DNA of 64,000 nucleotides from Naegleria gruberi (taxonomy: Eukaryota): assembly GCA_000004985.1 (NCBI GenBank), contig GG738886.1; one strand, written 5' to 3'. Position 1 is the stretch's first letter, and each line of letters begins with the position of its first letter. Below, in pieces: positions 28,212-54,877 of the stretch. A model generated the notes under the pieces. It ran no database searches, was not told the origin of the DNA, and saw only the letters and a list, made by a program, of their open reading frames with translations. Position numbers and translations under genes: made by a program.

Positions 28212-30089
28212 TTAAAAATCATTACACAATTTCAATATTTCCTTATCATTTCTCAAATCAATGGATGCATATTTCAGTGCACTCTTATTTTGTTTGACTG
28301 CAAATGAAACTATTCCTCTATCACTTCTGAGTTTTAAACACATTTCACGTAACAGATTGCCATCTCTTTTCACAACTCGAATCACAAATACTCTATCTGA
28401 GACCTTTAATTTACCAGCACTGTAGAATGCATTAATAGCATCAGTTTTTAACGCTTCCATCAAAATCTCTCTATCTATTTGATGTTTTCTTGGAAAATTT
28501 GGCAAATAATTCCCAGATTGTTTGACTAGTTTCTGAAAGCAAAATAGTCTGTCATTAATCAATCTTTTAGATATCTGACTAAAATTCAACATGACGTTTC
28601 AGCAGCTTTGAGAACAATTTGTTCATCATCCCAAAACTCTGCTGTGCAAGAATTGATTGCATCTCCATCTTGTGTGACTGCAGCCAAAACTATTTCTCTA
28701 TCTGTTTGAAATTGTTCACCAACATAATACAATATCTCACCACATCTTGTTACAGCTTGTAATACAAATTCTCTGTCTTGTTTAAATTCATTTGGGATTG
28801 CATTCATTGCTTCGTACAGATTAAAACATCCTGAGGATATTTTAATTGATTCCAATAATACCTCTCTGTCGTGTGTGAATTGATCTGGAATATTCTCCAA
28901 AGCAAAACCAGTCTTTGCAAATGATTGGATGAATTCAATGTCATTTCTCAATCTATCAGAAATATATGTAATGGCCAAACCAGAAGATTTGAGTGCCAAC
29001 TCAGCAATTTCCTTGTCATCTCTCAATTCAGTTGATGCAAATTGGAAACAGGACCAATTTTTCATAACAAGCATTTTCACAAATTCCTTATCATTTTTCA
29101 ATTCATCAGATGCGTGTTGAAAAGCTTGTGGATTTTGTTGAATAGCTTCCATAACAATCTCTCTATCATTTCTCAATTCCTTACACGCATATTCTAGTGC
29201 TTTCACACCGTCCAAATTTGATATTGTGAGCAGAAACTCTCTATCATTCGTAAATGCCCTACTTGCACTGTTAATTCTGGCAAGAGATTTTGAAAATGCT
29301 TTAAAAATCACATCTCTATCATTTCTCAATAATTGGGATGATTGAAAATATGCATTTGGCTTTGATTCTAGAGCTAGTAAGACAATTTCCTTATTATTTT
29401 GCAATTCTTTGGACGCAAACTCTAGGGCATCACCATTTTCTTGTACAGCAGTTCTAACTATTTCAATATCATTTCTAAATGTTTCAGATACAAATTTAAG
29501 AATTGGTCCCCAAGTACTAACAGCTGTCATTACAATTTCCCTGTTTCTTTTCAATTCTTCAGATGCGTACGAAAGAAAATGACCCTTATGTTGCACAGAA
29601 GTTTTTACAATTTCAAAATCATTTCTCAATTCTTCTGAGGCACATCTGATGCTTCCATTTTCCTTGACAGCTGCCATGACAATTTCTCTATCATTTCTGA
29701 AAACATCATCCACATAATTGAGTGTCTCAAGACCACTATACTCTGTTGTAGTCAAAACAAACGATCTATCCTTCCACAATCCAAATTTTCTAGCCAAAAT
29801 ATCAAATTTATCACAAGGCAAATCGAATATTTTGTCATGAATAAAAGTTCGATCTCTAATCAATCAATATTGGAAAATTAATTGGTTGATTTTCATTGTT
29901 AAATTCTTCTCCATGATCAAAAAACTCCCAAACAGAATCATCACTTCTCCCGAAACAATATTCAAGTATTGGTTTTAAAATGGTGTCGTGTTTGTCATTG
30001 GGTGGAATGTCTGCAATTTTTGTGGAGAGTAATTGGGAAGAGAGGGACAAATCTAAAAAACACTGATGGTTATTCTTCATCATTGGCAT
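28212..30089 (-). CDS. DUF4116-repeat protein (RNDREIV..A..NG.AL.YAS repeats), gene model interrupted by two frame changes
   Basis: Three overlapping minus ORFs (29856..30089, 28586..29863, 28212..28592) all continue the same ~25-aa repeat pattern. The junction at ~29859..29866 is a tandem ATCA|ATCA (tgat|tgat on the coding strand); removing one copy restores ...NFPILIRDRTF. The junction at ~28586..28595 needs a -1 shift (...AAETS/MLNFSQISKRLINDR). Confidence 0.65.
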
Positions 30090-41863: not shown

Positions 41864-43213
41864 TTACAGGTCATTCGATGAAAATAATGAATCAAAAGCA
41901 CAGTCACCTTGTTCTAAAAGGAATGATTGTTTGTCGCTTGTATCTTGTTGTTGATTATTATATTCTGTTGCTGGTTTTTCAAGAGTGAGTGGACTTGTTG
42001 GTCTCACATCAATATGATTCCACCTCGACAAGTATTGAGAGTTTTGGGCAGAGTCGTTCAATAATTCATAAAATTCTTGTTCAGTGCTCATTGAATCTTG
42101 TGGTATAATGTCATTTGTTGATAACATTGGATCATTAGGGAAGAATGGAGTGGTAAACATTTGATTATTGTGAGCCATCTGCTGTGTAATTGCCTGGCTC
42201 ATAAGGTTTTGGAATTCAGTTTGGAATTGAGCAATGATTTGCTGTTGCATTTGCTTAAAAAGTTCACTACCATTTTGTTGTAATAATTGTTGTAAAAGAT
42301 GAGCAACAACAGAGGAATCTTGCTTCTTGAGCTCTGCAGAAAGGGTATTCATAGTATCTACAAGGGAGTTGAGTAATTGACTTGCCATAATATTATCAGC
42401 AGGTTTCAATTCTGGAGGAATATAAGTATTGTTGCATTGATTTGGTTGGGCAGTATTTGTTTGATTTGTAATTGTAGTGTTGTTGTTATCTTGTTTCTGT
42501 TTCTTTGATGATGATTTGTTTTCTTTTCTCTTTCTCTTGTTTGTCTTTTCATCTGATGATCCATCAGTTGAATTGATTGAAGAGTCATCTTCACTATGAG
42601 TTGCATCTTCCTCATCTTCGTGAAGTATGAAATGCTCTGTTGGACTCTTGAAGGAGACAACTTGTGGAGTACTGGTTTTTTGACCACCCTTGTTATTAAG
42701 ATCAATCACAAAGTAATTATCTGTGAAATGATCACAACTTTTGAGTTGTTTTCTCAACTTGCATAACCTCTTATTGACTGTACGAGGTGCTCCATTAAAA
42801 TTAGAGGCTGGTTTTGATGAATTTGCATTGGCTGTACATTCTTGTTGTTTCTGATGATCGGATTCATTACCAGCTTCACTTTCATCAACAAAGGTAATTT
42901 TGGATTTTGGACTCCTCTTTTTCTTGTTGGTTGCTGTTGTGGTTGTTGTAGATGTTGTCGTTGTATTCACACACTCCTTGTCTAATTTGAAAGAAGTTGT
43001 TGAAGAACCATTGGAATTGTATTTCACCTTTGTTCTAGGCTTTTTTGTTTTTGTTGTCTTGCTGTTGGTTGGTGATGAAGACTTGTCAACTTCAGTTGGT
43101 TGTTGAATATGTTGTTCTTCTTGTTGTTGCAAGGAGAGGTTAGTGGAGGAGGTGATGGCTGTCATGATTGAGTGTAATATATCAAGTGATGAAGTTAAAC
43201 TATTGATGATCAA
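41864..43213 (-). CDS. Gln/Asn/Thr-rich low-complexity protein (hypothetical, transcription-factor-like composition)
   Basis: 449-aa ORF. Track start is TTG; first ATG at 43165. Poly-T/N/Q tracts and a Q-rich C-terminal region. No domain recognised. Confidence 0.5.
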   Translation of the reverse strand: MIINSLTSSLDILHSIMTAITSSTNLSLQQQEEQHIQQPTEVDKSSSPTNSKTTKTKKPRTKVKYNSNGSSTTSFKLDKECVNTTTTSTTTTTATNKKKRSPKSKITFVDESEAGNESDHQKQQECTANANSSKPASNFNGAPRTVNKRLCKLRKQLKSCDHFTDNYFVIDLNNKGGQKTSTPQVVSFKSPTEHFILHEDEEDATHSEDDSSINSTDGSSDEKTNKRKRKENKSSSKKQKQDNNNTTITNQTNTAQPNQCNNTYIPPELKPADNIMASQLLNSLVDTMNTLSAELKKQDSSVVAHLLQQLLQQNGSELFKQMQQQIIAQFQTEFQNLMSQAITQQMAHNNQMFTTPFFPNDPMLSTNDIIPQDSMSTEQEFYELLNDSAQNSQYLSRWNHIDVRPTSPLTLEKPATEYNNQQQDTSDKQSFLLEQGDCAFDSLFSSNDL

Positions 43214-43693
43214 TAATATGAACTGTTGGAAGTTACTTTAGTGGTGAGTGTGGTGGTATGGATAGGTATGATTCTTTTTATCTCGTGTTAGGATCAAAAG
43301 ACAATGCAATCAGAAATAACGTATATTGGTTGCTGTACGGGATAATAATGTATAGTGGATAATGATAGACAATAATAATAATGGCTTGTTAGTACTATAA
43401 AATGTTAGGATCGCAGTTGTTTTGGTTTACTTTGGTAAGGTTGCAGAGTACTTTCTTCTCTGCGTCGGTAAGATCCTATTATGTTGTTTTTTTTGTCTGT
43501 GTGTTTTGAGTCGCTATGAGTGATATTGTTTTATGGCGAATGATGTTATGTGTTTTGGAATCTTCGTTTGAGTTGATGGCGGTGATCAACAATATTCTCT
43601 CTCTATTGTACTGACCACCAGTGATGTGTCTCGTATGAATTCGCTCAATAGAGCAGGTGCAAACTCGCGTGTAACTCGTATTTTTTATTATTT

Positions 43694-44797
43694 TCATTCG
43701 TTATTGTCACTCTCCGATTCATCTTCTTCCTTGTCATCCTTCGTTTGGAAATTGTCAACCAATTCGACAGTGACGTTACCTGCTTCCGTTGCTGGTTGTG
43801 GAGATGAATATTCGATGGGTTGTGTGTTTGGTTGAGTGTGTTCTGTTGCATTTGAACTGTCAATCTTCTTCTTCTTTGAATAAACCATCACTGCCCTCGC
43901 AGGTTTAACAATGTCAACTTTCTTGTCACATACAATCACAAAAATCTTGTTTCCATCAGAATCCATTTCCGTTTCAATCGGCGCCAAAGTTTGCATATCT
44001 CCGTCTTTTGGAATGTATTGTTTCAAAGTGTACAGTGAGGTCGTACCACTTTGCTTTTCGTGTATGACACCAACGTCAAACTCAATTTCATCTAATACCT
44101 TTTGCATCGTTTTTGAATCTAATATCGTTTCAATGGAAACATCAATCAACAATTGCCTTTCTTTTCTACTAACACCTTGAAAAACAAATTTCAAGTGTGA
44201 AGGGTAACGAATCGCAAAAATATGCTTGGTTGCAGTTTCGAAATGATGAAACGCTAACAAGTCGGTTTCATATTTGACTGTTTTAGTGATGTGTGATTTT
44301 GATGGAGTGCGAAATAATGATTCTTCTGATGAGTCTTCAGATGATGATGAATCATCTGTGTTCGTTTCGTATTCACTTTCGTCTTCCTCTTCGTCATCAT
44401 CAACAACTTTAGGTGCTTCTAACTTTCGTTTCTTTGCTTCCTTGACACGTACCAATTCATCAGCATATTTTGCGGATTGTTCTTCAAAGTATGCCTTTTT
44501 GTTCTCCATTTCAATTGATGACTTGTCTTTAATTGTGCTTTTGTATTTTCGTTGAACTTGAGACCAACTGTAACCGTTTTCGTTCGCGAACGCAACAAAA
44601 GCGTCTTTGTTTGTTTGATAAACTTTACCTCTATTTGCGAGCCAGAAGAGGCGTAATCTTTCTGTATCAACTTCTTGCCACTTTTTGGACTTCTTTTTCT
44701 TCAGTGACTGGGCTGTATCAACAGTACTACTATTGGCAACAGAGCTAGAAGTCGGGGCTTGTACTTTTTCTGTGTTCTTCCTCTTCTTGGTGCCCAT
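43694..44797 (-). CDS. Harbinger-associated Myb/SANT-like DNA-binding protein
   Basis: 367 aa. N-terminal KKWQEVDTERLRLFWLANRGKVYQTNKDAFVAFANENGYSWSQVQRKYKSTIKD (Myb/SANT-like Trp spacing), acidic stretch, atypical codon usage. Confidence 0.65.
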   Translation of the reverse strand: MGTKKRKNTEKVQAPTSSSVANSSTVDTAQSLKKKKSKKWQEVDTERLRLFWLANRGKVYQTNKDAFVAFANENGYSWSQVQRKYKSTIKDKSSIEMENKKAYFEEQSAKYADELVRVKEAKKRKLEAPKVVDDDEEEDESEYETNTDDSSSSEDSSEESLFRTPSKSHITKTVKYETDLLAFHHFETATKHIFAIRYPSHLKFVFQGVSRKERQLLIDVSIETILDSKTMQKVLDEIEFDVGVIHEKQSGTTSLYTLKQYIPKDGDMQTLAPIETEMDSDGNKIFVIVCDKKVDIVKPARAVMVYSKKKKIDSSNATEHTQPNTQPIEYSSPQPATEAGNVTVELVDNFQTKDDKEEDESESDNNE

Positions 44798-44863
44798 TTT
44801 TTTTTCAATTTCGAATATCGTTTTTCACAAAAACATTCGTGTTCACTTTTGAATTATGAAAAA

Positions 44864-45748
44864 ATGCAAAACTTGTTTTCTGTGTTTCGATCATACATGC
44901 CAAAAGCAACTGAAGAAACATTCAAAGCGTTTTTTGCATTCAATCCTAAGGAATTACAAATTGTTTATGACACGTTTGTTGGTAGAGTAATAGCACCAAA
45001 GTGGTTTCTAATCACCTTAGAATGGTTAACGAATTATCCTAAACATCATGTACAACATGTTTATTGGAATATTTCTAGAAGAACACTTGTTGGAAGATTA
45101 TGGAAGACGGTTTTGTTTCTCTCTCGTCTTCTCCCTGATTTTGATTTTGATGATAGACTAGAAGAAGAACCAGCAAAACGAATTTTCAAAGATATCAAGT
45201 GTATCGTTGACGGTGTTGAAATTAGAATACGTCGCCCATCTAAAAGACGATTCACTAAAAAACAAAATTGGATCCACCAGAAAACATTTTTCTCAAACAA
45301 GAAGAAAATGCATGCGATGAAATATCAAGTGGTTGTCACTCTCCGTAAAGGGAAGATTATAAATGTCAGTCGTGCGTATAGAGGACGTGTTCATGATAAA
45401 AAGATATTTGATGATTACATAAGGGAACACGGTCACGAATTTGGTGAACAAGAACATCTTGGTGACCTTGGTTATGTTGGAGTACCAGAGATATTTACAC
45501 CTTTCAAGAAACCGCGGGGTGGTGAATTAGAACAGTATCAGAAAACAATTAACAAAGTCATTGGTGCTGCGCGTGTAACTGTTGAAAATGTGATTGGTCG
45601 TATCAAACGATTTGACATACTTAACCACACATTTAGGCACCCACTTGTCAAACACGAAGATGTGTTCATCATTTGTGCGAAACTGGCGAACTTACATCTT
45701 CGCTTTCATCCCGTTCGAAAGTGTGACGAACCGCTCTTGGACGTTTAA
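44864..45748 (+). CDS. Harbinger/PIF DDE transposase (DDE_Tnp_4)
   Basis: ORF 44759..45748 starts at TTG and overlaps the Myb-like gene; first ATG at 44864. Catalytic triad context is intact: CIVDGVEIRIRRP (D), HLGDLGYVGV (D), ARVTVENVIGRIKRFDIL (E). Confidence 0.8.
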   Translation: MQNLFSVFRSYMPKATEETFKAFFAFNPKELQIVYDTFVGRVIAPKWFLITLEWLTNYPKHHVQHVYWNISRRTLVGRLWKTVLFLSRLLPDFDFDDRLEEEPAKRIFKDIKCIVDGVEIRIRRPSKRRFTKKQNWIHQKTFFSNKKKMHAMKYQVVVTLRKGKIINVSRAYRGRVHDKKIFDDYIREHGHEFGEQEHLGDLGYVGVPEIFTPFKKPRGGELEQYQKTINKVIGAARVTVENVIGRIKRFDILNHTFRHPLVKHEDVFIICAKLANLHLRFHPVRKCDEPLLDV

Positions 45749-47022
45749 TAAAAATAAAAAATAACGTTTATTTAAAAGGTTGCACCCGCTCTAATCTAGA
45801 AATTATAAAGTATTTAATAAAATGGGCTCTTTTTGTTCTAATAATTACGATTTCAACAACATATTTGGCGTTAGCAAGAAAAAGACTTAACAGTTTCCAA
45901 TTTAGCTCTTGGCATTTTTTCTCAATGGTATGAGATATACTACTGTAATGTCTGTTTCCTTATATCCACATGTTCTTGTTCGAGTGCAAATACTTGTTCA
46001 ACGACCTTTTTTGAGTAGTAATGCAACAAGAGATGAGGTGTGGAGTGTAAAATTGAGGTCAAATGAATGGTGATGTTGTTTCGGGTATGAGCAATAGATA
46101 TTTACTTTATGAAATGTTTTGAAGATATTTGCATGAAAATCTTGTCGTGAGCATCAACTTCCTAACATGTAGAAAATAAAAACAATTATTTCCGGGTATT
46201 GATTCTCTTGATACAGCAACAACCATTTCACATTCGCCAAGTTTGCCGAGATTATTAATACTCGTTGTTTCATCATTTTGGGAAGACAGATATATTTGGG
46301 CAAAATGAAAAAATTGTACATTTTAAAATCGAGATACCTGATGCCTGACGTCTTGGAACCTACCACAAACATGGACAAAAATACAACCCAAATTTCACAA
46401 AGATAACGCTAATACAACATCCAAAAACCAATCCACTATTTTCCAAATTCATATCCATTCCTCATCTCATTGTAATATGAACAAAGTCACTTTACATACA
46501 AAATCTAAAATCAAACATTCCGAATTTTTCAAGATCAACACACTTCATGATCACTAGAAAATGTAATGGTTTTTGTTTAAATGGAAAAATCTGATGGACA
46601 TCTTTTGAACAGATTTCTGAAGAGATGTTTCAAGATGTGTGTTGTATAAACATTATTACGCTTGTATTGGTAATTAAATCACCATCCATCTACAGTTTAA
46701 TACAATTCAAAGTCATCATGAAAAATCAAAAGATTTTCCTCATTTTCCTCATTGGGATTCCAATATGGAAAGAGTTATTAAGTATCCAATTTTGTAGACA
46801 TTTAGTTGTAGTTTCAAGAATCTACAAGATGTCATCTCCATCAACACTTGGTTATTTCATACATTGGATTTTATACATTGTAAACACTTATTTTCAATTA
46901 AAATCAAGTCATATTTGAAACCTTCCTTAATTGGTATGCACATTTTCAATACAAATTAAATATTAAATATTATTAATAATTGAAAAATATTTAAATTAAA
47001 TATTCTTCTTTTAATTAAAAAA

Positions 47023-48766
47023 ATGTTTCAACACTCGGTACCGAGTGAAGTTATTTTCCATGTGGCTGAATTTCTCGACTCGTTGCGTGATATTGCTCAT
47101 TTACTATTACTTCTCACCACTGAATATTCTACTTATTTTTCCTTTCATGATGGAAAAGAATTAGTAGAACAGAAAAGCAATATACAATTCTATTGGAAAA
47201 CCCTACTAGCCAATGTATTGATGGCTCACATTGAACAATTTGTTACAAGAGTTCGATCGGAGAATGATTTGAAAAAGATTAAAGAAATTAAAAAGAAAGG
47301 CTTGGCAAATTATCATCAATGTTCTGAAATTGTTCTCAAGTCGAGTGTGAGGAAAAGATTCCGATCGCTCGAGTTGAAAATTGGGGAAATGATGGAACGA
47401 TATTATGTTAGAATTTTGAATGAACAATTTGGAATAGAATCAAAGTTTGATATTTTGGAGTGTGTAGAATTGCTGACGAGGAAACGATCTAGGCAATTTT
47501 ACTCTAATTTCTTTGGGGCAATTGTGAAGAATGATAATCATGAGGAGTTTTTGAGTTCTTTGAAAGCTCTTATTAGAAGAGAAGCATTGAAATGTTATGA
47601 AAAGAATATGTTGAAAAAATTGATCAATTCTACACAATTGGAGAGTATTACCAATTCAAATTCTGAAATTATTACTGATATTTTACGTGATGGGATTGAA
47701 TTATCACCCGAGTATGCTGTTATCTTGCCAGATATCATCAAGATTTTGAAAATTAATTTATCTATTCTGCAAGTGGCAAAATTATTCACACACCTAATTG
47801 GATCTGATTTGTTAGAAACTTTTATTATGGGAAATGATTTTGAAACGATGAGTAATGAATGCATTTGACATTATTTTAAAATATGGCAAAAAGCACAACT
47901 CAATTAAGGAGATTCAGGCTTTTAAAAATTTTGTCCAAACACACGATCCATCTCTTGAAATATGGAATCATATTAAGGACGAGACAAATAGAATTGTGAA
48001 AAACCAGGAATTGATTCTAACTGATGCTCAATTTCAATTTCTTGATATTTTAGAAATTGAATCCATATGCATTGGGAATTATAAACACAGTCCAGCCAGA
48101 TTTCAGCTTATAGAATGGTTAAGAGGAAAACAGTACAGAATCGATAGAAGTGACTTGTTGAGTATTTTATTCACACCAACACCAGAATATCACTTTAGTG
48201 AATATGTGAAATTGTATCAATTTTGTAAATTGGAGTATAATTTCAGTATTTATGAGGAATATGAGTCGAGTAATTTAGTTTGTCATTTTTTCAAATCATG
48301 GAGATCAACTAATGCCAATTTATTCTTCGAGGGAATTATTCCTGATGAACTAATAATGGTAGAGCAGATATCAAGCAGATATTTATTGAGAGATTGTGTG
48401 GCTACATACTTGGATCGTATCTATTATTCTAAAAATCCAAAACCTATCATTGACTATTTACAAGACAAGTTTTATCCTTCAATATTTGATATTGATTTTC
48501 TAGTGAGTATGATCAAAAGAAAAAAGTATGCATTAGATTCTTTGAATTCCAACTACTTGTGTGAATACATACTTCCTCTTATCAAAATTAATGGAATTTC
48601 ATTTCAAGATCTGGCTGTTGGACTCATTTCTGAAAGTGGCGATGTCTTTCAAGATTGCATCTATTCTAAATATCAACAACACACAGATGAATATATCATG
48701 GCTCTATATCTTGCCTGTGTTAATATTAAGCAAATCAAAGCAGAGCAAAACCCTCTATCTCAATAA
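47023..48766 (+). CDS. hypothetical protein, gene model needs a +1 frame change at ~47852..47868
   Basis: ORFs 47023..47868 and 47855..48766 overlap by 14 nt in adjacent frames (...FETMSNECI* / MNAFDIILKYGKK...). No usable intron was found. Skipping one nt at the TGA gives a continuous ~580-aa protein. No domain recognised. Confidence 0.5.
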
Positions 48767-49480
48767 TTGAAGTATTGTAATAGTTTCATAATAAAATTCC
48801 TCTGAAAGAGTTTCCAATTCCGACACAGCCTCATGAAATGCTCGTTCAGCCATTTGCCTACCTAACTCATAATCTTTCATTATTTCCGTACAGAATACAG
48901 AGAAATTCAGAATTAATCCCAATCTGACTGGATGTGTAACAGGAAGAAAATTCTCAGCCATGCTTTTAGCCAAATTGTAGGTCTCTAAACAATTCTCAGT
49001 TACCTTCTTTCCAAATTCATTTTCATCATTGATAAATAACTCTGCAATATATCTATAGTAATCTGCCTTCATCTTTTGAAAGAAAACTGCAGAAACATTA
49101 TCAGATTGGTTGGATGGTATCAAATGTTGATCCAATAATTGCAAAACCTCATTGCCAAGATCCACAATTTCATTTCTGATTTTAATTCTGTAATTCTTGA
49201 TCATTTCCGATTGAGATGTATTTTCATATTTCAATTGCAATGAACTGATGATTCTCCAAGCATTTCTTTTACTACCCATCATGTTTTTATAGGCCACGGA
49301 GAGTAGAGATCGTTCATCAGGTGACAATTCAACATCCGATTGAACTATCTCTTTTAAGAGTTGTGCTATTTCTTCATTGATGGTTTCATCATTCGAAATT
49401 TTAATTTCAATGATTGGTACTGTTCTTCTTACCTTCATATCTCTCTGCTTGGTCGAAAACTTTGGCAAGGAACAAAACAT
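48755..49480 (-). CDS. divergent 14-3-3 family protein
   Basis: 241 aa. 14-3-3 signature 1 RSLLSVAYKNMMGSKRNAWRIISS. Also MKADYYRYIAEL, HPVRLGLILNFSVFCTEIM, and C-terminal LSEEFYYETITILQLLR, ending before the usual DNLTLWTS tail. Its 3' end overlaps the convergent gene 47023..48766 by 12 nt. Confidence 0.8.
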   Translation of the reverse strand: MFCSLPKFSTKQRDMKVRRTVPIIEIKISNDETINEEIAQLLKEIVQSDVELSPDERSLLSVAYKNMMGSKRNAWRIISSLQLKYENTSQSEMIKNYRIKIRNEIVDLGNEVLQLLDQHLIPSNQSDNVSAVFFQKMKADYYRYIAELFINDENEFGKKVTENCLETYNLAKSMAENFLPVTHPVRLGLILNFSVFCTEIMKDYELGRQMAERAFHEAVSELETLSEEFYYETITILQLLR

Positions 49481-49685: not shown

Positions 49686-49766
49686 TGCAGAAGGTGGGAT
49701 TTGAACCCACGAAGCTTGCGCAGTAGAACTTGAGTCTACCCCCTTTGACCACTCGGGAACCCCTGC
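49686..49766 (-). tRNA. tRNA-Leu (anticodon CAA), class II with long variable arm
   Basis: Reverse complement reads GCAGGGG TT CCCGAGTGGTCAAAGGG G GTAGA CTCAAGT TCTAC TGCGCAAGCTTC GTGGG TTCAAAT CCCAC CTTCTGC A. Anticodon loop CU-CAA-GU. T-loop GTTCAAATC. The acceptor stem has two G-U pairs. Overall very similar to eukaryotic tRNA-Leu(CAA). No intron. Confidence 0.85.
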
Positions 49767-49880: not shown

Positions 49881-51408
49881 ATGACCAACAATAAGAACAC
49901 CAACAACAAACAAAAGAAGACTACCAAAAAGAAGAAGGGAATTTCATTAGATGACTTTTACAAATCGGCCAGTGCAGAAAAATTGCAAAATAATAGGAAA
50001 ATTATTAATCATCAATTTATTCCAATTGAGTTCCGATCTGATGAGGAGTATATTCTAAAATGTGTGGCCAAGAATTGGGCAATTCTTCGCTATGCATCTG
50101 ATGAGTTGACTACTTCCAAGGAATTTATGATGAAATGTGTTAAAATTTCTGGTCAATCATTTAGTTATGCTTCTAGTCAACTGAGAAATGACAAGGAATT
50201 GGTTATGGAAGTGATTAAACAAGGAAGGGAGAACTTGTATTATATTTCACAGGAATTGAGAAGTGATAGGTAGGTATAGAAAGCATTAAGTTAATAATTT
50301 ATTAACAAAAATCTCTTTCGTATTTAGACAAGTCGTTTACGAAGCTGCTATTCGAAACGAGAGTGCACTTTTTTATGCCTCTACTGAGCTACGAAATGAT
50401 AAAGAGTTTGTGAAAGATCTTGTGAGATTGAACGGTTTAATACTTGAATATGCCTCTGATGAGCTACGTAATGATAGAGAGGTGGTTATTAATGCCATTT
50501 CACAGAATGGACTAGCTCTAAAATTTGCATCCAATCTGTTGAAGAGTCAGGATGATATTGTTGAGCTAGCTTTCAGTCAAAACAAGTTGGCTTATCAATT
50601 TGCATATCCACCAAGAAAAGCAACAGATTTTTTCACAAGTGATGAATTGAAAAATGATAGAAATGTTGCATTGCAAGTGGTTGCCCTGGATGGTCTTTTA
50701 CTTGGTCAATTGAACGATAATTTTAGGAATGATAGAGAAATTGTGTTGAAAGCTGTTGAAAATAATGGAATGGCATTGAATTTTGCTTCTGAAGATTTGA
50801 GAAATGACAAGTCAATCATTCTGGAAGCTGTCAAAATTAGACAGAATGAAATTGGCAGGAAACCAATTGCTGCGTATGAGGTTGATCAAGCTAAACCTTT
50901 TGAATTAGTTTCAGATGAGTTAAAGAGTGATAAGCACTTTATTTTACAAGTCATTCAAAACAATCCTCACACATTTAAATATGTCTCCAATGAATTGAAA
51001 TGTGACACTGAATTCATTTTACAAGCTTTCAAGCAACATTCTTACAAAATCATGCACTATATTTCCAAAGATCTTCGTCAAGAAAGTACATTCCAATTGA
51101 AACTCATTCGTGATACTCTTGAAGCATTAGGATACATACCTGAAGGAATCACCAATAAGGAAGTAGTTTTAAAAGCCATTGAAAAAGATGGAAGAGCTTT
51201 GAAATGGGCTTCTTATGAGTGGCAGAATGATAAGCAAGTGGTACTAATGGCCATCAGAAGAAATGGCTATGCTATCAAATATGCTAGTGAAATATTACAA
51301 AAAGAACGTGATTTGATTTTGGAAGCTGTAAAGCAGAATGGATATTGCAGAGAATTTTCAACGGAATTACTAGATGAAAGAATGAAATATTGCTATCCAG
51401 ATTTGTAG
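49881..51408 (+). CDS. DUF4116-repeat protein, 2 exons
   Basis: join(49881..50269, 50328..51408). A 58-nt intron (GTAGGT at 50270 to TAG at 50327) splits an Arg codon ag|a. Exon 2 continues the repeat (QVVYEAAIRNESALFYASTELRNDKEF...). About 14 repeats in total. Confidence 0.8.
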
Positions 51409-53178: not shown

Positions 53179-54877
53179 ATGACTCAACTTGTTCTAATAG
53201 ATTTTCACACTCCATGATTGGACTAATTTTCACAAATTAAAAGAAAAATTCATCAAACAAGAAAAAGGACTCGTAAATTGGCTGAACGAAACTTTAAATA
53301 TAAAATCGGACAAGTTCAATCTAGACGAATATTGTTTTTTAAAAATCGAATATGCATTCGAAAGGGATGTTGTTTCGAGTCTAATTAGAAATAATGACAT
53401 TAGAATACCTAGTTGTTTCGGATGGAGGACAGATCTTGAATTTTTGAAAAAAGCTGCACTTTCAGGTTATACAACAGCTAGAAAAGAAATTGAGGAGCTA
53501 GTTACTGATGAGGAGGTTTGGAGATTTCTTGTTAAAACGTATAATTGGACTGGATTTAGAGATGAATTGACATTTAACAAGGAGTTTATGTTGTTTGCTA
53601 TTGAGGAAATGATTGTTAGTGCCGAAAGTTTATTGGAAAGGTGTAACGAAAGTTTCAGAAATGATCCAGAGACTGTAAGGAGTGTATATTTTGCACATGT
53701 TGTGACTCGAACATATTCTTTAGCGGGTTTTTCAGATGATGAATATATCGGAAATCCCTTCGATATTTTGCAAACTCAAACCTATCTCTATTCACATCGG
53801 TCAATTGTTGAAAATTTGAGAAATGACCCTATTTTCATTTTGGATTGTGTAAAGAAATTTGGAAGAGTTTTGGCATTTCTTGATTTGAAATACAGATCTG
53901 ATAGAAATTATGTGCTGGAAGCTATTAGACAGATAGATGGTGGAACTTATTGTTATCACAAAGGATTATTGAGATTCGCCTCTGAGGAGTTAAGAAATGA
54001 CAGAGAAATTGTTAAGGTGGCTGTGCAAAACTGGGCCTCATGTTTCCAATTTGCATCAGATAATCTCAGAAGGGATGAAGAGGTAATTCGTGAACTCATT
54101 TCAATTTCATCAGGAAATGTTTTAGAGTATGCTGAAGAAAGTATTTTGAAAAATGTAGAACTTGTACTCTTTGGATTGGAATCGGATGCTGGTTGTTTTG
54201 AATTATTTGATCAGAGTTTACAAAATGATAGAGATTTTATACTAAGATGTGCAAAAATCAATGGTAACATACAAGTTCCAGATATGTTTTCTAGTGATAG
54301 AGAAATTATGAAAACTCTATTAGAAACTTGTTTGAGGAATCGCCAAAGTGAGAATGATATTTTTTACACAATTGATGAATCTCTGTTTATGGACATTGAA
54401 TTTGTTAAGGAGCTAGTTGATCTTTATGAAATATATCCAGACACTCATTTTCCAACAAGGTTATGCAAATTTATTAATGAAGAAATAATTTGGAAAATAA
54501 TTCAACAATCTGCAAAAAAGGGGCTAATGAGATATGAAATTCGTGAGATATCTGATGTTTGGAAAGATCCATTGTTTGTGAAAAAGGTTCTCGATCTTGG
54601 AATTAAATTATCACGAGTTGATTATACAGCATTCGCTGACGATTTGAAATTAAGGATATGGAAAGACGAAACCAATATTTATTCGTTTCCATTCAAAAAG
54701 AGCAGTATGGAATTTCAAAGACAAGCTGTCAAGCTCAAACCTGAATGTATTTACGGTTCCTACTATTTTCAAACAATTTGTGGATATAGTGAAGATCGAG
54801 AAGAATTGTTGAGGTTGAGAGCAAACAGATTGGAATATTTACAATTCCACCTCCCAAAAAGATTTGATACTTGGTGA
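53179..54877 (+). CDS. DUF4116-repeat protein; N-terminal start unclear (frame change near 53201..53217)
   Basis: ORF 53444..54877 has a TTG start; the same frame is open back to 53201 with no ATG. An ATG at 53179 in the +1-adjacent frame (MTQLVLIDFHTP*) could serve if one nt is skipped near 53215. Body carries DUF4116 repeats (RNDREIVKVAVQNWASCFQFASDNLRRDEEV...). Confidence 0.65.

What the first reader, a model, noticed from the sequence alone, without database searches (positions are those of the whole stretch)
43440..46380. Compositionally foreign Harbinger/PIF DNA transposon, apparently intact
A Myb/SANT-like ORF (minus) and a DDE_Tnp_4 transposase with all three catalytic residues in context (plus) start 66 nt apart. 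Both use CGN, GCG, CCG and ACG codons that host genes avoid. The flanks are more GC-rich than the surroundings. This points to a recently acquired or recently active element. It sits between a Q/N-rich protein gene and a 1.2-kb gene-free interval, 45.75..47.0 kb, that may hold its right end or remnants. I could not find TIRs or the 3-bp (TWA) TSD by eye, so the boundaries are open.
Basis: partly seen in the sequence, partly recalled or inferred. Interest (0 to 1): 0.6.

Follow-up and report, generated by a model that had tools for sequence, protein, structure and literature searches.

The report
Intact IS5-like (Pangu/Harbinger) transposon in Naegleria

Summary
The window is Naegleria gruberi NEG-M. 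The two divergent ORFs are real and start 66 nt apart. The plus-strand ORF (44864-45748) is a DDE_Tnp_4 transposase with an intact D-D-E triad. The minus-strand ORF (43694-44797) is the annotated 'predicted protein' NAEGRDRAFT_51168.

A 17-bp terminal inverted repeat (15/17) sits at 43649-43665 and 45777-45793. Each arm lies exactly 28 nt beyond its ORF's stop codon, and the pair is flanked by a 3-bp AAT direct repeat. An environmental relative (42% identical transposase, same gene pair) has an unambiguous 25-bp TIR with the same TAGAG terminus and the same AAT flanks.

An ANT duplication, an AG-initial TIR, a motif-less second ORF and IS5-like affinity match the 'Pangu' group of the PHIS superfamily, not canonical TWA PIF/Harbinger.

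The foreign composition is real: CpG o/e is 1.11 against 0.42±0.10 for host DNA.

ORF1 has no Pfam Myb match. It models as a homeodomain-like N-terminal domain plus an HSP20/alpha-crystallin-like beta-sandwich. It belongs to a tiny Naegleria-restricted family, with stand-alone members in N. fowleri and in a metagenome contig.

Copy number and activity could not be tested. Verdict: new member of a known kind.

The parts
43649..45793 (.). Whole element, 2145 bp, with termini TAGAG...CTCTA. About 93% of it is coding.
   Evidence: Bounded by the TIR pair. CpG o/e is 1.11 and dinucleotide delta* is 0.171, against host 0.063±0.023.
43647..43649 (.). Left copy of the candidate 3-bp target-site duplication, AAT. 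Its last T can equally be read as the first base of the TIR.
   Evidence: Sequence ...GCTCAAT|AGAGC. The same AAT|AGAG junction is present in L001.
43649..43665 (+). Left terminal inverted repeat core, TAGAGCAGGTGCAAACT. The whole 45-nt end (43649-43693) aligns with the right end.
   Evidence: 15/17 match to the reverse complement of 45777-45793. A match this good was seen in 0 of 400 shuffles and 1 of 400 random genomic pairs of 120-nt zones. The arm lies 28 nt from the ORF1 stop codon.
43694..44797 (-). ORF1, the accessory protein (367 aa; NAEGRDRAFT_51168 / XP_002674129.1). It has a homeodomain-like N-terminal domain (about residues 40-95), an acidic linker, and an HSP20/alpha-crystallin-like beta-sandwich (about residues 179-300).
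44798..44863 (.). 66-nt AT-rich spacer between the two start codons. It is presumed to be a shared bidirectional promoter (inferred).
   Evidence: Sequence. The relative L001 has the same divergent layout with a 115-nt spacer.
44864..45748 (+). DDE_Tnp_4 / IS5-like transposase (294 aa) with catalytic D116, D201 and E241. It is not annotated in the public protein set.
   Evidence: Pfam 6.9e-31; NCBIfam IS5_4 2.5e-15, below that model's cut-off. (triad invariant). (exact sequence absent from the collection). (relatives).
45777..45793 (-). Right terminal inverted repeat core. The reverse complement reads TAGAGCGGGTGCAACCT.
   Evidence: The arm lies 28 nt from the transposase stop codon, mirroring the left arm exactly.
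45793..45795 (.). Right copy of the candidate target-site duplication, AAT.
   Evidence: Sequence GCTCT|AATCTAG.

Best explanation
This is one structurally complete autonomous copy of a cut-and-paste DNA transposon of the PHIS (PIF/Harbinger-ISL2EU-Spy) superfamily in Naegleria gruberi. It is best placed in the IS5-like 'Pangu' group.

Proposed mechanism, by analogy with PIF/Harbinger elements, where both element-encoded proteins are needed (PMC2836001):
1. The 66-nt central spacer drives divergent transcription of both genes (inferred).
2. Each 45-nt end doubles as the 3' untranslated region of one gene (inferred).
3. The ORF1 protein binds the ends through its homeodomain-like domain (inferred).
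4. ORF1 recruits or assembles the DDE transposase, plausibly through its HSP20-like beta-sandwich (inferred).
5. The transposase cuts at the AGAG...CTCT termini and integrates at ANT sites, giving a 3-bp duplication. Here that duplication is AAT (shown as sequence, not as an event).

Its CpG-normal composition in a CpG-depleted genome, the intact ORFs, the intact duplication and the apparent absence of close paralogues suggest a young, low-copy arrival, possibly by horizontal transfer (inferred).
For: - Transposase: DDE_Tnp_4 at 6.9e-31 with an invariant triad.
- TIR: 15/17, P<=0.0025 in the zones next to the stop codons, both arms exactly 28 nt from a stop codon.
- Duplication: AAT direct repeats flank the AGAG...CTCT termini.
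- Independent confirmation: locus L001 comes from a lake metagenome (PMC12352040). Its transposase is 42% identical, and its ORF1 homologue is 29% identical over the C-terminal domain, in the same divergent layout. It has a TIR of score 47 against 22.8±2.8 for shuffles, the same TAGAG terminus and the same AAT flanks. The element is CpG-richer than its CpG-poor flanks.
- Subgroup: Pangu is defined by an ANT duplication, a TIR of 11-40 bp starting AG or GG, two ORFs with no known motif in the second, and a clade next to IS5 (PMC4482050).
- IS5 affinity: the next-best transposase hits after the two protist relatives are bacterial IS elements at about 35% identity, and the NCBIfam IS5_4 model is matched.
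- Composition.
- No synteny between copies.
Against: - Only one copy is visible in the 64-kb window, and the rest of the genome could not be searched.
- No empty site was available, so AAT is a candidate duplication supported by two loci only. Its inner base is ambiguous with the TIR.
- The TIR has 2 mismatches in 17.
- Placement in the Pangu clade was not tested phylogenetically.
- Han et al. screened N. gruberi and reported no PHIS family there. That fits a single or low-copy element but is not positive evidence.
- CpG-rich sequence extends about 365 bp left and 600 bp right of the TIRs. This is not explained by the 2145-bp element.
- No expression or transposition data are available.
Confidence: 0.78

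Rival explanations
1. The pair is domesticated or immobilised, like HARBI1/NAIF1, HDP1/HDP2 or ALP1/ALP2. The two transposon-derived genes now serve a host function and no longer move.
For: - ORF1 is annotated as an ordinary single-copy gene, with no close paralogue in N. gruberi.
- Stand-alone intact ORF1 homologues exist in N. fowleri and in an environmental Naegleria-like contig. They have no transposase remnant and no TIR. The environmental one has host-like CpG.
- The pair is conserved at 42% and 29% identity in another organism.
Against: - TIRs and a flanking 3-bp repeat are retained here and in L001.
- Composition is strongly non-host.
- There is no synteny with the N. fowleri or environmental loci.
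- The non-coding ends are minimal and symmetric, as in a mobile unit.
Confidence: 0.1
2. The transposon is only a passenger inside a larger foreign island (about 43.28-46.4 kb), for example an older insertion of viral or other horizontally acquired DNA. The true mobile or foreign unit would then be wider than the TIR-bounded element.
For: CpG o/e is 0.99 in 43214-43648 and 0.74 in 45794-46400, against 0.3-0.7 for most intergenic regions of the window. N. gruberi is reported to carry methylated TE and viral-derived regions (PMC12344493).
Against: - No outer inverted or direct repeats.
- No protein or DNA similarity of the flanks to the element.
- No Rfam or tRNA feature.
- CpG counts in the flanks are small (12 each).
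- A few other intergenic or 5' regions also reach about 0.8-0.95.
- L001's flanks are CpG-poor immediately outside its TIRs.
- No relative was found in viral contigs.
Confidence: 0.07
3. The element is an old, silenced resident. The unusual CpG content reflects local mutational or chromatin conditions rather than recent arrival, and the element is intact only by chance or through weak selection.
For: Deeply diverged ORF1 paralogues (27-33% identity) in N. gruberi and N. fowleri show that the family has been in Naegleria for a long time. The TIR is imperfect.
Against: Both ORFs, the catalytic triad, the TIRs and the 3-bp repeat are all intact. The dinucleotide signature differs from the host even without CpG (0.137 against 0.062±0.023). 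Published N. gruberi methylation shows no CpG preference, so a local methylation effect on CpG is not expected.
Confidence: 0.05

Closest known systems
Pangu group of the PHIS transposon superfamily (Han et al. 2015, Mob DNA 6:12, PMC4482050). Several of its families are filed in Repbase as 'Harbinger-N_CCri'.
   Same: - 5'-ANT-3' 3-bp duplication (AAT here).
- Short TIR (17 bp; Pangu range 11-40) beginning with AG.
- Two ORFs: a DDE_Tnp_4 transposase with no extra domain, and a second ORF with no recognisable motif.
- Affinity to bacterial IS5.
   Different: - Shorter than any listed Pangu family (2145 bp against 2.5-5.5 kb).
- The host is a heterolobosean. Pangu was reported from animals, fungi, a heterokont and algae, and none was reported in the Naegleria genomes that were screened.
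- Apparently single-copy.
- Clade membership was not tested by phylogeny.
Canonical PIF/Harbinger elements (PIF, Ping/Pong, Harbinger3_DR)
   Same: DDE_Tnp_4 transposase plus a separately encoded DNA-binding accessory protein, short TIRs, a 3-bp duplication, and two-protein transposition (PMC2836001).
   Different: The duplication is AAT, not TWA. The accessory protein has no Myb/SANT/MADF profile match and carries an HSP20-like C-terminal domain. The transposase's nearest non-family hits are bacterial IS5-type elements.
Bacterial IS5-family insertion sequences (NCBIfam NF033581 transpos_IS5_4)
   Same: Catalytic core similarity (E 2.5e-15; about 35% identity to metagenomic bacterial IS transposases). 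ANT-type target, according to PMC4482050.
   Different: - The score of 56.6 bits is far below the family cut-off of 140.
- The bacterial elements are single-ORF and carry an HTH_Tnp_4 N-terminal domain, which is absent here.
- This element sits in a eukaryotic chromosome with a second gene.
Domesticated Harbinger pairs (vertebrate HARBI1/NAIF1; Arabidopsis HDP1/HDP2, PMC5339849)
   Same: A transposase-derived protein paired with a DNA-binding partner. The HDP1/HDP2 complex also contains alpha-crystallin-domain proteins (IDM2/IDM3), which is a loose parallel to ORF1's HSP20-like domain.
   Different: Those genes have lost their TIRs and duplications, are syntenic across species and are host-like in composition. 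None of this holds here.

Membership tests
PHIS / PIF-Harbinger superfamily (sensu lato) | DDE_Tnp_4-type transposase with a complete D-D-E triad | tested here: met
   Pfam PF13359 at 6.9e-31, positions 1-158 of 158. D116, D201 and E241 are invariant.
PHIS / PIF-Harbinger superfamily (sensu lato) | Terminal inverted repeats bounding the element | tested here: met
   17-bp TIR, 15/17, P<=0.0025, placed symmetrically 28 nt from each stop codon. The homologous element L001 has a TIR of score 47 against 22.8±2.8.
PHIS / PIF-Harbinger superfamily (sensu lato) | Second ORF encoding a DNA-binding accessory protein | tested here: inconclusive
   The ORF is present and its pairing is conserved in L001. 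A DNA-binding role is inferred only from a homeodomain-like N-terminal domain: PBX1 at E 5e-4 by profile, and Foldseek E 0.3-0.5.
PIF/Harbinger sensu stricto | 3-bp TWA (TAA/TTA) target-site duplication | tested here: not met
   The flanks are AAT/AAT in the only register that gives a direct repeat. The TAGAG and GAG registers give CAA/ATC and ATA/TAA.
PIF/Harbinger sensu stricto | Accessory protein with a Myb/SANT/MADF domain | tested here: not met
   No Pfam hit for any of the 7 family members at E<=10. The best structural and profile matches are homeodomains.
Pangu group (PMC4482050) | 5'-ANT-3' target-site duplication | tested here: met
   AAT at 43647-43649 and 45793-45795. AAT also flanks L001's element. 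No empty site was available to confirm it.
Pangu group (PMC4482050) | TIR of 11-40 bp, usually starting AG or GG | tested here: met
   AGAGC... when the duplication is read as AAT; 16-17 bp. Definition taken.
Pangu group (PMC4482050) | Two ORFs: a DDE transposase without other domains, and a second ORF without known motifs | tested here: met
Pangu group (PMC4482050) | Transposase falls in the Pangu clade adjacent to bacterial IS5 | tested here: inconclusive
   Indirect only. After two protist relatives, the next hits are bacterial IS transposases with HTH_Tnp_4, and there is an NCBIfam IS5_4 match. No Pangu reference sequences were available for a tree.
Pangu group (PMC4482050) | Repeated family in the genome, with paralogous empty sites | not testable with these tools
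   The N. gruberi genome outside the window could not be retrieved. There is only one copy in the window.
Domesticated Harbinger-derived gene pair (HARBI1/NAIF1-like) | Loss of TIRs and duplication; fixed syntenic orthologues; host-like composition | tested here: not met
   TIRs and duplication are present. The N. fowleri ORF1 homologue is non-syntenic and unpaired. CpG and codon use are non-host.
ISL2EU / Spy groups | ISL2EU: 2-bp AT duplication plus a YqaJ ORF. Spy: no duplication, insertion between AAA and TTT, single ORF. | tested here: not met
   The flanks are ...CTCAAT / AATCTAG and the element has two ORFs with no YqaJ hit. Definitions taken.

The most novel reading that the evidence does not exclude
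The accessory protein may define a previously undescribed, Naegleria-lineage-restricted family, with a homeodomain-like DNA-binding domain fused to an HSP20/alpha-crystallin-like beta-sandwich. Under this reading it began as the partner of an IS5-like (Pangu) transposase and has been exapted repeatedly as a stand-alone host gene, for example N. fowleri FDP41_012129 and the environmental homologue in L005. The copy in this window would be a recent horizontal arrival that has not yet drifted towards the host's CpG-depleted composition.
Probability: 0.25. Interest if true: 0.55.

Novelty: new member of a known kind. Interest (0 to 1): 0.35.

Why it matters
**Annotation.** An unannotated transposase gene, and a 'predicted protein' (NAEGRDRAFT_51168) that is really a transposon gene, can now be labelled with exact element boundaries.

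**Host range.** It extends the IS5-like Pangu group of eukaryotic transposons to Heterolobosea (Discoba), a lineage in which a survey of 836 genomes reported no PHIS element.

**Tool potential.** At 2.1 kb and about 93% coding, with its ends placed, it is a tractable candidate for an excision assay. N. gruberi has few genetic tools, so it could in time serve as a transposon tool.

**Composition.** The sharp CpG contrast is a simple marker for recently acquired DNA in this genome.

**Accessory protein.** Its unusual predicted architecture, and its stand-alone relatives in N. fowleri, are a small lead on transposon-protein domestication in a deep-branching eukaryote.

Tried and rejected
- The generic repeat finder on 42800-47200 gave no convincing TIR. 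A gapped local alignment of wide flanks gave the true pair, but with a non-significant score (z about 2). The pair became convincing only with the positional test and the homologous TIR in L001.
- No outer TIRs or direct repeats were found beyond the element.
- No other copies, fragments or MITE-like derivatives were found in the window (blastn word size 7, and tblastn).
- There is no synteny with L001, L003 or the N. fowleri locus L006.
- The viral-contig scan found no relatives. The metagenome scan added only one partial locus, L008.
- The word-indexed protein searches with ORF1 returned only ORF1 itself (single sequence) or ORF1 plus P0022 (profile). The exhaustive HMMER search was needed to find relatives.
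- DNA for the N. gruberi paralogues could not be fetched, so their genomic context is unknown.
- Pfam and NCBIfam gave no hit for ORF1.
- A PDB profile search with the transposase found nothing meaningful.
- The AFDB fold library was unavailable.
- Methylome-paper supplements and a literature search by locus tag returned nothing.
- The TIR and duplication of the bacterial IS in L004 were ambiguous. The candidate inverted repeat in L003 is low-complexity and only marginal (z about 3.5).
- GC content alone does not distinguish the region.
Full report
**Source and setting.** The window is from Naegleria gruberi NEG-M. Three ORF products match annotated N. gruberi proteins exactly: NAEGRDRAFT_51168, 70764 and 70769, all on a 358,576-bp scaffold. 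The region is gene-dense and about 34% G+C.

**The observation.**
- ORF1 (43694-44797, minus, 367 aa) and the transposase ORF (first ATG at 44864, stop at 45746-45748, plus, 294 aa) are intact and divergent. Exactly 66 nt separate their start codons.
- The plus ORF matches Pfam DDE_Tnp_4 end to end (6.9e-31). D116, D201 and E241 are invariant among eight aligned relatives.
- The exact transposase sequence is absent from a collection of 15 billion proteins, so the gene is unannotated. ORF1 is annotated as a 'predicted protein'.

**Composition.** I measured codon use against 28 other ORFs of at least 200 aa in the window.

| Measure | ORF1 | Transposase | Host ORFs |
|---|---|---|---|
| CGN share of Arg codons | 0.50 | 0.60 | 0.20±0.13 |
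| NCG share of A/P/T/S codons | 0.18 | 0.25 | 0.058±0.048 |
| Leave-one-out CAI (z) | -1.7 | -2.8 | n/a |
| CpG o/e | 0.98 | 1.11 | 0.40±0.16 |
| GC3 | 0.36 | 0.31 | 0.28±0.045 |

- GC3 is barely different, so the signal is really CpG.
- For the whole 2145-bp element, CpG o/e is 1.11. In 289 host windows of the same size it is 0.42±0.10, with a maximum of 0.73.
- The Karlin dinucleotide distance is 0.171 against 0.063±0.023. It remains an outlier with CpG removed (0.137 against 0.062±0.023).
- Both strands and the non-coding ends share the signal, so it is a property of the DNA and not of codon selection.
- Published methylomes show very low methylation in N. gruberi with no CpG preference (PMC12344493). 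The host's CpG depletion is therefore a genome signature of unclear origin, which the element has not acquired.
- Plain G+C does not single out the region.

**Ends of the element.**
- The generic repeat finder gave nothing convincing.
- A local alignment of the flanks picked out TAGAGCAGGTGCAAACT (43649-43665) against the reverse complement of 45777-45793, TAGAGCGGGTGCAACCT.
- Tested only within the 120 nt beyond each stop codon, a 15/17 ungapped inverted match occurred in 0 of 400 shuffles and 1 of 400 random genomic pairs. The two arms lie at identical offsets, 28 nt from their respective stop codons.
- The full 45-nt ends align, including an inner T-rich block next to each stop codon.
- Reading the termini as AGAG...CTCT, both sides are flanked by AAT (43647-43649 and 45793-45795). 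No other register gives a direct repeat.

**Independent support from a relative.**
- The closest transposase is P0001 (42% identity), on a 3.2-kb contig of an Ohio lake metagenome.
- That contig (L001) carries the same divergent pair, and its ORF1 homologue is 29% identical over the C-terminal domain.
- It has an unambiguous TIR, TAGAGTCTGTAAAATTCC[T/C]GTTTTT, with score 47 against 22.8±2.8 for shuffles.
- It has the same TAGAG terminus, the same AAT|AGAG...CTCT|AAT junctions and a similar length of 2175 bp.
- The element is CpG-richer than its nearly CpG-free flanks.
- Two diverged elements that share terminus, junction and layout make the boundaries secure. No outer repeats exist in the window, and the 45.8-47.0 kb interval holds no remnant, RNA family or tRNA.

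**Classification.**
- Han et al. 2015 (PMC4482050) split the PHIS superfamily by target-site duplication.
- Their 'Pangu' group has ANT duplications, TIRs of 11-40 bp usually starting AG or GG, a DDE transposase without extra domains, a second ORF without known motifs, and a position next to bacterial IS5 in the tree.
- The present element meets each of the features that can be read from sequence.
- Its next-best hits after two protist relatives are bacterial IS transposases at about 35% identity. One of them sits in a clearly bacterial 37-kb contig. It also matches NCBIfam IS5_4, below that model's cut-off.
- It fails the canonical PIF/Harbinger criteria of a TWA duplication and a Myb/SANT accessory protein.
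- N. gruberi and N. fowleri were among the 836 genomes screened, but no PHIS family was listed for them.
- Clade membership was not tested by phylogeny, because no reference sequences were available.

**The accessory protein.**
- ORF1 has no Pfam or NCBIfam match, even at E=10.
- An exhaustive HMMER scan of 1.84 billion representatives found only six relatives. Three are further N. gruberi proteins: NAEGRDRAFT_62561, 72928 and 61592, at 27-33% identity. One is N. fowleri FDP41_012129. The other two come from metagenomes.
- AlphaFold models from this thin alignment are of moderate quality: pLDDT 70-88 in the folded parts and low in the linkers.
- The N-terminal domain is a three-helix bundle. 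The family profile matches PBX1/Extradenticle homeodomains (E 5e-4 to 1e-2) with a sensible alignment through helix 3. Foldseek's best, non-significant hits are TALE homeodomains and a SANT domain.
- 'Myb/SANT-like' is therefore right only at the level of the homeodomain-like fold class.

**Relatives without a partner.**
- The N. fowleri homologue (L006) and an environmental one (L005, Naegleria-like at 34% G+C) stand alone. The L005 homologue has host-like, low CpG.
- Six-frame HMM searches find no transposase remnant within the fetched DNA, and no TIR flanks them.
- Conversely, two transposase relatives lack an ORF1 homologue nearby (L003, L008).

**Mechanism.** By analogy with PIF/Harbinger elements, which need both proteins (PMC2836001), I infer the following.
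- The central spacer drives divergent transcription.
- ORF1 binds the ends.
- ORF1 recruits the transposase, which cuts at the termini and integrates at ANT.
- Shown: the sequence anatomy, the catalytic triad, the TIRs and the flanking repeat.
- Inferred: DNA binding, protein-protein interaction, promoter function and current activity.

**What could not be settled.**
- Copy number and activity are open, because genomic DNA outside the window was not retrievable.
- Indirect evidence for a single or low copy number: ORF1 was gene-called here, yet no other annotated N. gruberi protein is more than about 33% identical to it. The PHIS survey also reported nothing in this genome.
- The CpG-rich stretches just outside the TIRs (o/e 0.99 and 0.74, against a typical 0.3-0.7) remain unexplained.

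**Verdict.** This is a real, structurally intact, compositionally foreign transposon. It is a new member of a known kind, of moderate interest.

Noticed in passing
window 43214-43648 and 45794-46400: The DNA just outside the TIRs is also CpG-rich (o/e 0.99 and 0.74; 12 CpGs each), against 0.3-0.7 for most intergenic regions. There are no outer repeats and no similarity to the element. It could be the promoter of the neighbouring Q/N-rich gene, older foreign DNA, or chance.
   Followed up: partly
L006 10001-10984 (N. fowleri VFQX01000013.1) and L005 1626-2771 (ENA metagenome contig): These are intact stand-alone homologues of ORF1, with no transposase remnant, no TIR and no synteny with the window. 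The L005 copy has host-like low CpG. They are candidates for domesticated accessory-protein genes.
   Followed up: partly
L008 1-1655 (VFQM010031116.1): A transposase relative (43% identity) has an in-frame TGA at a position where two of three homologues have Trp, which suggests a host with UGA=Trp. It is followed on the same strand by a different second ORF with AT-hook-like GRKPK/RGRPPK motifs.
   Followed up: no
L003 505-1489 (JGI metagenome 3300002220): A transposase relative (44% identity) has no ORF1 homologue upstream. It is bracketed by a marginal, low-complexity inverted repeat (z about 3.5) and lies next to a PALP-domain gene. It may be a one-gene version of the element.
   Followed up: partly
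window 28586-29863 (-), 50410-51408 (+), 53444-54877 (+): Three genes made almost entirely of DUF4116 repeats (Pfam E down to 1e-115) lie within 26 kb of each other.
   Followed up: no
window 47023-47868: The neighbouring gene NAEGRDRAFT_70764 has the next-highest ORF CpG o/e in the window (0.81) and a high share of CGN/NCG codons. It has no Pfam domain. Its end overlaps the start of the next ORF (47855-48766) by 14 nt.
   Followed up: no
window 49686-49766 (-): A tRNA-Leu(CAA) gene lies next to a 14-3-3 gene (48755-49480). The simple ORF translation of the 14-3-3 gene is not in the protein collection, so the annotated model probably differs, perhaps by an intron.
   Followed up: no
window 43649-43693 and 45749-45793: Each 45-nt end of the element contains an A/T-rich AATAAA-like block immediately after the stop codon of the adjacent gene. 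The transposon ends apparently double as 3' UTR or polyadenylation regions.
   Followed up: no
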